Source: Podarcis tiliguerta
Lineage: Eukaryota
Assembly: GCA_965153285.1 (NCBI GenBank)
Contig: OZ229113.1
Strand: one strand, 5' to 3'
DNA length: 64,000 nucleotides
Within the stretch, counting starts at the first letter, position 1, and the number at the start of each line of letters is the position of its first letter. Below, one piece after another: positions 48,501 to 51,500 of the stretch. The position numbers were made by a program.

Positions 48501-51500
48501 CTTTCTCCTTAAGTGTATATGGGTTTAAGTGTATATGGGTTTAGGAGGGTAAGTGATAAGACATCAGAGATGAACATTTTTGTACAGAATTGAAGAGCTT
48601 TCGGGAAAGCATTCTGTGATATATTTGGATTAGCTGATAAACTGCATGACCATCTTCCTTGGCTTTCCAAAAACCTGATAATTAGTTATGATACAGCACA
48701 ATACTAACCATGTCTGCTCAGAAGTACCGTATTTTTCGCCCCATAGGACGCACTTTTTCCCCTCCAAAAATGAAGGGGAAATGTGTGTGCGTCCTATGGG
48801 GCGAATGCAGGTTTTCGCTGAAGCCTGGAGAGCGAGAGGCATCGGTGTGCACCGACCACTCTTGCTCTCCAGGTTTCAGGAAGCTATCCGCAAGCCTTGC
48901 AAGCCCTGCGGGAGTTCCCATGGGCTCACAAGGCTTGCGGGCAGCAGCCTGCCGCCCGAAGCACGGGGAGCCCTCCGGAGGACTCCCCGTGCTTCGGGCG
49001 AGTGTCCGCAAGCCTTGCGCGCCCGACGGGAGGTCCCGCCGAGCGTGCGAGGATTGGGGCGGCAGCCTGCCGCCCGAAGCACGGGGAGCCCTCCGGAGGA
49101 CTCCCCGTGCTTCGGGCGAGTGTCCGCAAGCCTTGCGCGCCCGACGGGAGGTCCCGCCGAGCGTGCGAGGCTTGGGGCGGCAGCTTCCCGCCCGAAGCAC
49201 GGAGAGCCCTCCGGAGGACTCCCTGTGCTTCGGGCGCGTGTCCGCAAGCCTTGCACGCCCGACGGGAGGTCCTGCCGAGCGCGCGAGGCTTGGGGCGGCA
49301 GCTTCCCGCCCGAAGCACGGAGAGCCCTCCGGAGGACTCGCCGTGCTTCGGGCGAGTGTCCGCAAGCCTTGCGCGCCCGACGGGAGGTCCCGCCGAGCGT
49401 GCGAGGATTGGGGGGGCAGCCTGCCGCCCGAAGCACGGGGGAGCCCTCCGGAGGACTCACCGTGCTTCGGGCGAGTGCCCGCAAGCCTTGCGCGCCCGAC
49501 GGGAGGTCCCGCCGAGCGCGCGAGGCTTGGGGCGGCAGCTTCCCGCCCGAAGTAAGGAGAGCCCTCCGGAGGACTCCCTGTGCTTCGGGCAAGTGTCCGC
49601 AAGCCTTGCGCGCCCGACGGGAGGTCCCGCCGAGCGTGCGAGGATTGGGGCGGCAGCCTGCCGCCCGAAGCACGGGGGAGCCCTCCGGAGGACTCACCGT
49701 GCTTCGGGCGAGTGTCCGCAAGCTTTGCGCGCCCGATGGGAGGTCCCGCCGAGCGCGCGAGGTTTGGGGTGGCAGCCTGCCGCCCGAAGCACGGGGGAGC
49801 CCTCCGGAGGACTCCACGTGCTTCGGGCGAGTGTCCGCAAGCCTTGCGTGCCCGACGGGAGGTCCCACCGAGCGCGCGAGGCTTGGGGCAGCACCATGCC
49901 ACCCAAAGCACGGGGAGCCCTCCGGAGGGCTCCCCTTGCTTCTGGCGGGTGTGCGCAAGGCTTGGAGCGGCAGCCGCAGCTAGGGGGGAGGGAAATAATT
50001 TTTTTTTATTCATTTCCCCCCCCCCCCCAAAAAACGAGGTGCGTCCTATGGGCCGGTGCGCCCTATAGGACGAAAAATACGGTAAGTCTTAATGAATTTA
50101 GTGGGGCTTAATCCCAGGAAAGTAGGGTTAGGATTTCAGCCTTAGTATGTTCAATTCGGAAGTAGGATAACATTTGCTTTAGGAAAACCATTAAACTTTT
50201 TATCTAAATTCTAAACAAAAGAGACTGTTTTAAATGTGAATACCAGATTTCCTTGTCTATAATTCCCATCATCCTAGACTATTGGCTGTGCCAGCTGGTG
50301 CTGTTTGGAGTCCCAACAGTATCTTGAAATCCACAAGTTGCCCACCACTGTTCTATACAGTTCCTGAACATATGTTAGATCACATTCTCAGTTACAGTGT
50401 TAGCCTTTTGATTTTTTTTTTTTTAATTTCCTGAAACAAATTTGTAAACCCAGGAAAAGCTTTCTAGCAATGTAACTGGCCTCATTCCAATGTAATACTA
50501 AATTATGGCTTAGTGTTAAATAAATGAGCCTCAGGCTCACACACTGTTCCATGGCACAGCTACAAGGAACATTTTGGAAGCTCTCGGGGTTCTAAATAGC
50601 TATGCTATCCATGCAGGGAGCAGGCATCCCACTTGGAAAGTGATGACCTAATGTGAAGGAGGCAGGAAGAGCCATGTGACTTTGGGGACAGGGCTAGTTA
50701 ATATGAACGCTAGTCAGACATAATGTGATTAGTTAAAAACTAATCAGCTTCTGATCTCCTGACTGTGCCACATGGCTCACCCAGGTTTGTTCCTGAATGA
50801 AGCCACCAAGTTTACAGTAAAGAGCTGAGTCTGCTGTCCCTTTAATCATTCTGTCATTCATCCTAAAGTTATGCAAAGTCACGCATTACGTATAATTATA
50901 TAAAGGTTTGTGAGGCAGAAAGGCATATTCCTGTTTATTCTGTCATTTGGCTTAGTCCCTGTGTTTTCCTTAACTCTCTTCTATGAGGTCCATGTGGACG
51001 CAAACCACAAGGTTGTAACTACCCCAGCCTTTATGTGTGAAACACAATTGCATCACATTTATGATGGCATTGGAGCCATGGTAAAAAGTGTGTTGAAGCT
51101 TACAGGCAAATGAGGTGGATACCCATAATAGCAGTGACAATAACTTTAGGAAGTATGATCCTTATAACGCTGACCTAGCACAGGAGTTGCCTCTAAGAAT
51201 GCTTACGATTGTCTTGGAATGACATGTGTAATTTTCAGCACTGAAGAAGCTCAGGCCGGTTGAATCATGCATCCCCTCCGTATTTCAGCCACAGTCTTCA
51301 CATCGTCTTACAGTATATTTGACAACTTGCTCTGGAGATGGTCACTGCTTAACAAATCTGAATTGATAATGGAATAATAAAAGCAATTACATCATAACCT
51401 CTCCAAATCTTTCCAATCGCTCATCAAGCCTTTTCAGAGACTATTCTAATTGCATAAAATATGTTTCCAAATAAATTCCTACCTTCTGAAAATACCTGAA

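What the first reader, a model, noticed from the sequence alone, without database searches (positions are those of the whole stretch)
48727..50082. MITE inside the minor intron whose hairpin module expanded into a 1.1-kb satellite-like array
Seen: intact TIRs with a TA TSD enclose a first hairpin, an AGCTATCC-linked second hairpin, and then about 9 tandem 118-119-bp units. The element makes up about half of the U12 intron and retains abundant CpG, unlike its AT-rich flanks. The 259-bp sibling at 6259 has a single hairpin. Inference: a non-autonomous DNA transposon family that grows by amplifying internal fold-back modules, acting as a mobile CpG-island or satellite seed. I do not recognise this modular architecture from a described family. 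It is the best candidate for something new in the window.
Basis: partly seen in the sequence, partly recalled or inferred. Interest (0 to 1): 0.7.

Follow-up and report, generated by a model that had tools for sequence, protein, structure and literature searches.

The report
Lizard MITE carrying a palindromic tandem array
A small non-autonomous DNA transposon in a lizard gene's minor-class intron carries nine tandem copies of a CpG-rich, hairpin-forming 118-bp unit; this layout is already known from frogs, clams and flies, so it is a new example, not a new kind.

Summary
At 48727-50082 a 1356-bp element has 27-bp terminal inverted repeats (24 of 27 match) and TA on both flanks. It contains a terminal hairpin, a 62-nt core hairpin, an AGCTATCC linker and a 118-bp array of 9.1 copies (48887-49964). 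Each unit is two long palindromes. The element fills 52% of an AT-type U12 intron of the ES1/GATD3A-like gene. Its CpG o/e is 0.94, against 0.14-0.15 in the intron flanks. The 259-bp sibling (6259-6517, opposite orientation) aligns end to end once the array is removed.

The window is from a lacertid lizard, not human.

A TA-flanked non-autonomous DNA transposon is well supported. Growth by amplifying its own fold-back modules is only suggested: hairpin B weakly resembles the core hairpin and hairpin A resembles nothing. A "mobile CpG island" is not shown, because only one array-bearing copy was seen and unit variants are enriched in CpG decay.

The architecture is not new. Tandem-repeat-bearing MITEs are described: miDNA4 and Xstir in Xenopus, DTC84/pearl in bivalves, Tetris in Drosophila.

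No eukaryotic genome or transposon library was available, so family census, catalogue status and polymorphism stay unchecked. Verdict: a new member of a known kind, of modest interest.

The parts
48725..48726 (.). Left TA flank (putative target-site duplication)
   Evidence: flanks read ...CTCAGAAGTA | element | TAAGTCTTAA
48727..48753 (+). Left terminal inverted repeat, 27 bp, containing the first copy of the motif YATARGACGCAC (48742-48753)
   Evidence: 24 of 27 positions match the reverse complement of the right end, with the outer 12 perfect. for the motif.
48735..48805 (+). Terminal hairpin formed by the TIR motif and its inverted copy (48787-48798), with an inner T5C4TCC/GGGGAAA stem
   Evidence: -31.5 kcal/mol, z -9.7 (fold of 48727-48812); self-complementary match at 78%. 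The sibling has the same structure (z -5.4).
48818..48879 (+). Core hairpin H1 (62 nt), homologous to the sibling's single core hairpin
   Evidence: z -6.7. S versus H1 p < 0.0005 (0 of 2000 shuffles); 4 positions changed complementarily on both arms and 3 on one arm, of 22.
48882..48889 (+). AGCTATCC linker between H1 and the array. The same 8-mer abuts the sibling's hairpin (6419-6426, minus strand).
   Evidence: 6 matches in the window against 1.9 expected, 2 of them in the two elements.
48887..49964 (+). 118-bp tandem array, 9.1 copies. Each unit is hairpin A (about 50 nt) plus hairpin B (a 48-nt near-perfect palindrome). Alpha subtype: U2, U5, U7 and roughly U8. Beta subtype: U3, U4, U6. 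The edge units U1 and U9 are the most diverged.
49983..50024 (+). G-run/C-run hairpin around a T-run. The sibling has only the T-run and the C-rich half.
   Evidence: fold of 49966-50082, z -3.4; alignment
50039..50082 (-). Right end: two tandem copies of the motif (50039-50050 and 50056-50067), the outer one inside the 27-bp right TIR (50056-50082)
50083..50084 (.). Right TA flank
6259..6517 (-). 259-bp sibling copy without the array, in an intron of the TRAPPC10-like gene, with TA at 6257-6258 and 6518-6519
   Evidence: It aligns end to end with the large element once the array is removed (185 identical positions in 307 columns).
48374..50984 (+). Host intron, U12 type: 5' splice site ATATCCTT at 48374, branch-site TTCCTTAAC at 50966-50974, and a 3' end at 50984 (AT) or 50987 (AG)
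   Evidence: the flanking exons match ElbB profile positions 136-176 and 178-217.
48218..48373 (+). Upstream exon of the ES1/GATD3A-like (ElbB family) gene. The 5' boundary is approximate.
50985..51113 (+). Last coding exon of the same gene, ending in ...LKLTGK and a stop codon

Best explanation
The element is a copy of a non-autonomous cut-and-paste DNA transposon (a MITE) that inserts at TA. It sits in the last, U12-type intron of a lacertid lizard's ES1/GATD3A-like gene.

The family's basic form, seen in the 259-bp sibling, has these parts:
- 27-bp TIRs.
- Four copies of a 12-nt subterminal motif in a fixed layout. I infer these are transposase-binding sites.
- A terminal hairpin.
- One long core hairpin.

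In this copy, a 118-bp unit made of two GC-rich palindromes lies between the core hairpin and the right-hand T-run. It has been amplified in tandem to nine units.

I infer that the amplification came from replication slippage and unequal exchange, helped by fork stalling at the palindromes. This is the mechanism proposed for other tandem-repeat-bearing MITEs.

I read the high CpG content as youth plus the composition of the unit, not as protection from methylation.

What is shown: the anatomy, the homology of the two copies, the tandem structure with its subtypes, and the CpG statistics. What is inferred: mobilisation by a Tc1/mariner-like transposase, the slippage mechanism, the origin of the unit, and the timing of amplification relative to insertion.
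For: **Ends.** TIRs match at 24 of 27 and 22 of 27 positions, and TA flanks both copies. The TA dinucleotide frequency in the window is 0.066.

**Subterminal motif.** Both copies carry it in the same four-copy layout. All 8 matches with 0-1 mismatch in 64 kb fall in the two elements.

**Homology of the two copies.** They align end to end once the array is removed. BLAST gives 85.5% over 83 bp at the left end and 73.8% over 84 bp at the right end.

**No coding capacity.**
- Pfam finds nothing above cut-off in 3 of 3 long ORFs across the array; the only hit scores 18.7 bits against a cut-off of 27.2.
- A protein search with the array translation found none at E of 0.001 or better among 8000 candidates of 195-622 aa.

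**Array statistics typical of unequal exchange.**
- Inner units are 89-98% identical, and the edge units U1 and U9 are the most diverged.
- Two subtypes interleave.
- There is a 237-bp higher-order period.

**Hairpins are inherited by duplication, not maintained.** 95% of cells are paired, but 225 of 500 shuffles reach that value, and only 1 pair changed on both sides.

**CpG decay.** 11 of 32 distinct substitutions are CpG decay.

**Published parallels**:
- miDNA4 is a Tc1/mariner MITE in which 61% of copies hold one tandem-repeat motif and some hold arrays.
- In DTC84, a palindrome in each repeat is proposed as a hotspot for changes in array length.
Against: - Only two copies were available, so multi-copy status, mobility of the array-bearing form and any autonomous partner are untested.
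- The TIR start (CCGTA...) does not resemble the Tc1, mariner or pogo termini I recall, so the superfamily rests on the TA flank alone.
- At 1356 bp the element is longer than usual for a MITE.
- The link between the array unit and the family's own hairpin is weak: it holds for hairpin B only, p = 0.0065 uncorrected over 15 tests, and for the beta subtype only.
- The core hairpin shows 4 complementary double changes between the two copies. Something maintains or regenerates that palindrome, and plain decay does not explain it.
Confidence: 0.75

Rival explanations
1. The array unit is foreign to the family. Either the MITE captured a pre-existing genomic minisatellite, or another element was inserted into it, and the array then grew. 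The core hairpin would have played no part in its origin.
For: - Hairpin A has no significant similarity to the core hairpins or to B (p of 0.17 or more).
- The alpha form of B is not significantly similar to H1 (p = 0.24).
- GC is 0.73 in the array against 0.54-0.55 in the element's own ends.
- The sibling has nothing at the corresponding place.
- Capture of a pre-existing tandem repeat is the model proposed for miDNA4.
Against: - The beta form of B resembles H1 (p = 0.0065) and the sibling's hairpin (p = 0.029).
- U1 begins directly after the AGCTATCC linker that abuts the sibling's hairpin.
- No second pair of TIRs or flank duplication bounds the array (reading).
- The unit has no other copy in the 64-kb window; the 4 outside hits all have E of 0.5 or worse.
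Confidence: 0.2
2. The array length is an assembly artefact: a shorter repeat expanded or mis-joined by the assembler.
For: Tandem arrays of near-identical GC-rich palindromes are hard to assemble. I had no reads to check.
Against: - Every unit is distinguishable.
- There are 33 distinct column changes among U2-U9.
- The longest exact internal repeat is 109 bp, shorter than one unit.
- The ordered subtypes and diverged edge units look biological.
Confidence: 0.05
3. The array is an exapted functional element. It could be an unmethylated intragenic CpG island acting as an alternative promoter or enhancer, or a source of hairpin small RNAs. In either case it would be kept by selection in the intron.
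For: - It meets the sequence criteria of a CpG island: 1079 bp, GC 0.73, o/e 0.94. This is similar to the two putative promoter islands of the window, at 0.86 and 0.87.
- The hairpins are the size of miRNA precursors and draw many sub-threshold matches to miRNA models.
Against: - No Rfam family reaches its gathering score. The sub-threshold matches are spread over many unrelated miRNA families, as expected for any long perfect hairpin.
- There is no covariation in the array hairpins.
- Unit variants are enriched in CpG decay.
- No expression, methylation or conservation data were available.
Confidence: 0.08

Closest known systems
miDNA4, a Tc1/mariner MITE of Xenopus tropicalis (Scalvenzi and Pollet 2014; seen only through passages of PMC12628747, PMC9659126 and PMC12054243)
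   Same: - A vertebrate MITE with a satellite-like motif inside the TIRs.
- Most copies hold one motif and some hold arrays.
- It is proposed as a route from transposon to satellite DNA.
- It is assigned to a TA-targeting superfamily.
   Different: - miDNA4 is AT-rich (63% AT) and 300-600 bp. The array here is 73% GC, rich in CpG, and the element is 1356 bp.
- The unit here is two long palindromes.
- The sibling here has no copy of the array unit, only the core hairpin.
- No sequence comparison was possible.
Xstir / Xmix MITE-derived tandem repeats of Xenopus (Hikosaka and Kawahara 2004; passages of PMC12628747)
   Same: MITE, tandem array and MITE-array composites coexist. The repeats were inferred to derive from internal MITE sequence, by a mechanism involving stem-loops at replication.
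   Different: In that model the repeat unit arises from two neighbouring elements. Here a sub-element unit is repeated inside one pair of TIRs. Free arrays were not tested here.
DTC84 and pearl-type tandem-repeat MITEs of bivalves (PMC3879986, abstract and outline read)
   Same: - A central array of up to several core repeats sits within a 'cassette' of flanks with inverted repeats.
- Repeat variants are ordered.
- A palindrome in each repeat is proposed as a hotspot for copy-number change.
   Different: - Those elements have an AA target duplication, up to five repeats and a linked microsatellite.
- They are invertebrate elements.
- They may be related to Helitron-like elements; this last point is recalled, not checked.
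Tetris foldback transposon of Drosophila virilis (PMC4079207; search listing and start of abstract only)
   Same: A non-autonomous DNA element whose internal tandem repeats supply the building blocks of a satellite.
   Different: In Tetris the repeats are part of long terminal inverted repeats. Here the TIRs are 27 bp, and the array is a single block of direct repeats in the middle, so this is not a foldback architecture.

Membership tests
MITE (non-autonomous class II element) | Terminal inverted repeats | tested here: met
   24 of 27 positions match in the large copy and 22 of 27 in the sibling.
MITE (non-autonomous class II element) | Target-site duplication of fixed length flanking each copy | tested here: met
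   TA lies on both sides of 2 of 2 copies. TA frequency in the window is 0.066. Because TA is its own reverse complement, it could also be read as part of the TIR.
MITE (non-autonomous class II element) | Small size and no coding capacity | tested here: inconclusive
   The sibling, at 259 bp, fits. The large copy, at 1356 bp, exceeds the usual size only because of the array. There is no real Pfam match and no protein relatives.
MITE (non-autonomous class II element) | Many dispersed copies; empty sites or insertion polymorphism | not testable with these tools
   Two copies were seen in 64 kb. No lizard genome or read collection was available. The two scans of the prokaryote collection found 0.
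Tc1/mariner (Stowaway-like) superfamily | TA target duplication | tested here: met
Tc1/mariner (Stowaway-like) superfamily | TIRs shared with an autonomous element that encodes a DDE/D transposase | not testable with these tools
   There is no transposase gene in the window and no transposon library (Dfam, Repbase). My impression that the termini differ from Tc1, mariner and pogo termini is recalled, not tested.
Tandem-repeat-bearing MITEs (miDNA4, Xstir, DTC84/pearl type) | Tandem array enclosed by one pair of TIRs | tested here: met
Tandem-repeat-bearing MITEs (miDNA4, Xstir, DTC84/pearl type) | Copy number of the internal repeat varies among family members | tested here: inconclusive
   One copy has 9.1 units and one has none. 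With n = 2, no copy with a single unit was seen.
Tandem-repeat-bearing MITEs (miDNA4, Xstir, DTC84/pearl type) | The same repeat also occurs as free satellite arrays | not testable with these tools
   There is no copy of the unit outside the element in the window. The genome was not available.
Foldback elements | Long terminal inverted repeats built of subrepeats | tested here: not met
   The TIRs are 27 bp. The array is one block of direct repeats.
CpG island | Sequence criteria as I recall them: over 500 bp, GC over 0.55, CpG o/e over 0.65 | tested here: met
   The array is 1079 bp, GC 0.734, o/e 0.94.
CpG island | Unmethylated in the germline | not testable with these tools
   The only indirect sign points the other way: 11 of 32 distinct substitutions among units are CpG to TpG/CpA.
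U12-type (minor) intron | 5' splice site /RTATCCTT and branch site TCCTTAAC 10-15 nt from the 3' end | tested here: met
   ATATCCTT lies at 48374, directly after the exon. TTCCTTAAC lies at 50966-50974, which is 11 or 14 nt from the two possible 3' ends. The motif alone is not rare: 8 matches against 4.6 expected.
U12-type (minor) intron | The exon junction restores a continuous protein | tested here: met
   Each exon was scanned on its own and matches ElbB profile positions 136-176 and 178-217. Splicing itself was not observed.

The most novel reading that the evidence does not exclude
The array-bearing form may itself be mobile and multi-copy in lacertid genomes. It would then spread 1-kb blocks of CpG-island-like palindromes into genes and seed a lineage-specific satellite.

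The family may also make new hairpin modules by its own fold-back (template-switch) duplication. This copy offers three hints of that:
- The complementary double changes in the core hairpin.
- The extra G-run that turns the right-hand C-run into a hairpin.
- The weak similarity between hairpin B and H1.
Probability: 0.15. Interest if true: 0.55.

Novelty: new member of a known kind. Interest (0 to 1): 0.3.

Why it matters
If the family census bears it out, this would be an amniote example of the transposon-to-satellite route. So far that route is documented in vertebrates mainly for Xenopus.

The repeat is unusually rich in GC and CpG and is almost entirely palindromic.

A 1.1-kb hairpin-forming, CpG-dense block that makes up half of a minor-class intron is also a natural test case. 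It could show whether such insertions change methylation, replication stability or U12 splicing efficiency. It is likely to be a length-polymorphic marker.

As it stands, it is one locus of an ordinary kind.

Tried and rejected
**Literature search with terminal-motif strings.** I searched five 11-nt strings of the terminal motif. 37 papers hold at least one. The 20 listed are unrelated topics, and I judged them coincidences from the listing alone.

**Rfam.**
- Nothing reaches a gathering score in the whole window.
- With the E-value threshold, the hairpins draw sub-threshold matches to many unrelated miRNA families. Examples are mir-5470 at 40 bits against a gathering score of 98, mir-651 at 37 against 106, and mir-3156 at 44 against 76.
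- I rejected these as matches to a generic hairpin shape.

**Coding repeat.** Long ORFs run across the array in all six frames. They have no Pfam family above cut-off and no protein relatives (proteins of 195-622 aa only). I rejected this reading.

**PDB search with the two exons flanking the intron.** It gave 0 hits. I used the NCBIfam ElbB profile instead.

**Prokaryote genome collection.** I scanned it with a degenerate terminus pattern and with the core of hairpin B. Both found 0, as expected. This says nothing about lizards.

**Paper on a Tc1/mariner-like element in Zootoca (PMC10058329, passages).** That element resembles Mariner-N5_PM and ends in CAGAC. Nothing links it to this family.

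**Search for GATD3A/C21orf33 as a known minor-intron gene.** None of the 12 listed papers holds either gene name, so this stays unchecked.

**Foldback-element reading.** Rejected; see the membership test.

**Human origin.** Rejected.
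Full report
**Origin of the window**

I take the window for a lacertid lizard, not human.
- One exon of the TRAPPC10-like gene (5635-6144) is 100% identical to the proteins named for Podarcis muralis and Lacerta agilis. It is 99% identical to Zootoca vivipara and Podarcis raffonei, and 74% to the human protein.
- Two exons of the PWP2-like gene align to the human chain 7mq8_LO with many substitutions.
- The genes run TRAPPC10-like, PWP2-like, then ES1/GATD3A-like, all on the + strand.
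- All protein evidence came from single exons searched one by one. I did not build or search a joined (spliced) protein.

**The observation**

The sequence at 48727-50082 is as described.
- The element is 1356 bp. Its termini CCGTATTTTTCG... and ...CGAAAAATACGG match at 24 of 27 positions, with the outer 12 perfect. TA lies directly outside each end.
- TRF finds a 118-bp period with 9.1 copies, 90% matches and no indels at 48887-49964. It also finds a 237-bp period with 4.4 copies.
- Cutting at a conserved anchor gives nine units of 118-119 bp (U1 48888-49005 to U9 49835-49952) and a 13-bp stub.
This half is diverged from the other units, while the second half of U1 is almost identical to U2. 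So eight further full units and a stub follow it, not nine.
- GC is 0.73 in the array and 0.39-0.40 in the rest of the intron. CpG o/e is 0.94 against 0.14-0.15, and 0.29 for the window without the element. The element holds 154 of the window's 898 CpG in 2% of its length.

**The host intron**

- The exon upstream ends ...KEVT directly before ATATCCTT at 48374.
- TTCCTTAAC lies at 50966-50974.
- The last exon reads [19 protein letters not shown]...LKLTGK, then a stop codon.
- Scanned separately, four exons match the NCBIfam ElbB model collinearly at profile positions 62-101, 102-132, 136-176 and 178-217 of 218. The junction across this intron is therefore continuous.
- RTATCCTT alone is not rare: 8 matches against 4.6 expected. 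The call rests on its coincidence with the exon end and with the branch site 11-14 nt from the 3' end.
- The intron is 2611 bp if it ends at 50984, so the element is 52% of it.
- The end at 50984 keeps the residue count of the human protein as I recall it and would make the termini AT-AT. An AG three bases further on is the alternative. I could not decide between them.

**Anatomy**

Nearly the whole element is made of hairpins. As single-stranded DNA, each of its segments folds far better than dinucleotide shuffles, with 0 of 200 shuffles as good in every case:

| Segment | z-score |
|---|---|
| Terminal hairpin | -9.7 |
| 62-nt core hairpin H1 | -6.7 |
| U1 hairpin A | -6.0 |
| Hairpin B | -8.1 |
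| Whole units | -6.7 and -5.2 |
| Right end | -3.4 |

- Each 118-bp unit is hairpin A (about 50 nt) plus hairpin B (a 48-nt near-perfect palindrome), joined by short linkers.
- A 12-nt motif, YATARGACGCAC, occurs four times in each element in the same layout. One copy is in the left TIR, and its inverted partner lies 45 bp inside, forming the terminal hairpin. Two tandem copies lie at the right end.
- All 8 matches with 0-1 mismatch in the window are in the two elements. In total there were 20 matches at up to 2 mismatches against 8.8 expected, and 0 of 100 shuffles reached 20.
- I infer that these motifs are transposase-binding sites. That is not tested.

**The sibling**

- The copy at 6259-6517 is 259 bp and TA-flanked, with termini matching at 22 of 27 positions. 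It lies in the opposite orientation.
- Once the array is left out, the large element aligns with it end to end. The order is left end, core hairpin, T-run, C-rich stretch, right end, with 185 identical positions in 307 columns.
- The extra material in the large copy lies between the core hairpin and the T-run. It consists of AGCTATCC, the array, and a G-run that pairs with the C-run.
- The two core hairpins are homologous: the 5' halves give 0 of 2000 shuffles as good.
- They differ at 7 of 22 stem positions, and 4 of those changed on both arms in a complementary way. So this palindrome has been maintained or regenerated since the two copies diverged.

**History of the array**

- Inner units are 89-98% identical.
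- U9 (86-89%) and the first half of U1 are the most diverged.
- Two subtypes interleave: alpha in U2, U5, U7 and roughly U8, and beta in U3, U4 and U6.
- Diverged edges and interleaved subtypes are what unequal exchange and slippage produce. This rests on established knowledge of tandem arrays.
- Among U2-U9 there are 48 differences from the consensus at 33 distinct column changes: 11 CpG to TpG/CpA, 9 other transitions, 12 transversions and 1 indel.
- With 17 CpG in 118 bp, I expect about 10% of substitutions to be of the CpG-decay type under uniform mutation (my arithmetic). The observed 11 of 32 is about 3.5 times that. This points to methylation-driven decay, not a protected island.
- The hairpins show no covariation among units. 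95% of cells are paired, but 225 of 500 shuffles reach that, and only one pair changed on both sides. They are copies of one another, not structures under visible constraint.
- The longest exact internal repeat is 109 bp, so every unit is distinguishable. This speaks against a trivial assembly duplication but does not replace reads.

**Origin of the unit**

I compared 5' halves only, because palindromes would otherwise count twice, against dinucleotide shuffles.
- U1's hairpin A and the array's A are clearly the same.
- The beta form of B resembles H1 (p = 0.0065) and the sibling's hairpin (p = 0.029). The alpha form does not (p = 0.24 and 0.34).
- A resembles neither (p of 0.17 or more).
- These were 15 comparisons without correction. 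An earlier scoring scheme gave H1 versus B p = 0.023.
- AGCTATCC abuts a hairpin in both copies. The 8-mer occurs 6 times in the window against 1.9 expected.
- The unit has no other copy in the window.

I therefore hold internal duplication of a core-hairpin module as possible for B and unknown for A. Capture of foreign sequence stays open.

**Other readings excluded**

- No Rfam family reaches its gathering score anywhere in the window. The sub-threshold matches are spread over many unrelated miRNA-precursor families, as any long perfect hairpin would give.
- The long ORFs across the array have no Pfam family above cut-off. They have no relatives among 8000 scored candidates of 195-622 aa.

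**Comparison with what is known**

Tandem-repeat-bearing MITEs are well described.
- Passages of PMC12628747, PMC9659126 and PMC12054243 describe miDNA4, a Tc1/mariner MITE of Xenopus tropicalis with an internal satellite motif. 61% of its copies hold one motif and some hold arrays. The same passages describe Xstir, where MITE, array and composites coexist and a stem-loop mechanism is proposed.
- The abstract of PMC3879986 describes DTC84 in a clam. It has a cassette of inverted-repeat flanks around up to five ordered core repeats, each with a palindrome proposed as a hotspot for length change.
- Tetris (PMC4079207) I saw only in the search listing.
- The present element works like these. It differs in unit composition (GC 0.73, 17 CpG per 118 bp, two long palindromes), in host (an amniote) and in location (a U12 intron).

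For squamates, my searches turned up only the following:
- SINE-derived satellites (PMC10702118, passages; the term MITE occurs 0 times).
- A review listing the lacertid satellites pLHS, CLsat, Agi160, pLCS, pGPS, HindIII and TaqI (PMC7397244, passages). In that review both 'MITE' and '118 bp' occur 0 times.

These searches cover open-access text only. Supplements were closed, and Dfam and Repbase were not available. I cannot say that the family is uncatalogued.

**What stayed unchecked**

- No eukaryotic genome, read set or transposon library could be searched.
- Untested as a result: copy number of the family, mobility of the array-bearing form, free arrays of the unit, presence or absence in relatives, methylation, and any effect on splicing.

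**Verdict**

This is a new member of a known kind, a tandem-repeat-bearing MITE. Interest is 0.3.

Noticed in passing
window 50966-50990: The U12 intron's 3' end is ambiguous. Ending at 50984 gives AT-AT termini and keeps the residue count of the human protein as I recall it. An AG at 50986-50987 is the alternative. Both lie 11-14 nt from the branch-site A.
   Followed up: partly
window 36356-36589, 41154-41387, 55531-55761 (minus strand), 58496-58715: Four copies of an interspersed repeat of about 230 bp, 87-92% identical to one another. It is probably a SINE. It was not identified, and there is no Rfam match at gathering score.
   Followed up: no
window 15847-16201 and 28585-28951: Two copies of a repeat of about 365 bp, 85% identical. 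Its translations share a long ORF-like stretch. It was not identified.
   Followed up: no
window 2729-2938 and 58861-59070: A further two-copy repeat, 80% identical over 214 bp.
   Followed up: no
window 22500-23300 and 42500-43500: Two CpG-island-like stretches (CpG o/e 0.86 and 0.87; GC 0.54 and 0.61) lie upstream of the PWP2-like and ES1/GATD3A-like genes. They are probably the promoters. The gene order TRAPPC10, PWP2, GATD3A matches human chromosome 21 as I recall it.
   Followed up: no
window 13512-13582, 18179-18224, 39544-39581: Long pure microsatellites: (CTTT) x17.8, (TC) x23 and (CA) x19.
   Followed up: no
window 31615-31665: A 51-bp palindrome, 90% self-complementary, inside the PWP2-like gene region.
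   Followed up: no
window 49953-49986: The array ends in a stub that looks like the 3' arm of hairpin A plus the A-B linker, with the 5' arm and loop missing. This is my reading. It is the kind of deletion that a hairpin can cause.
   Followed up: partly
window 48818-48879 versus 6348-6418: The core hairpins of the two copies differ by 4 complementary double changes, against 3 single-arm changes. Either selection or arm-to-arm copying keeps this palindrome intact. The array hairpins show no such signal.
   Followed up: partly
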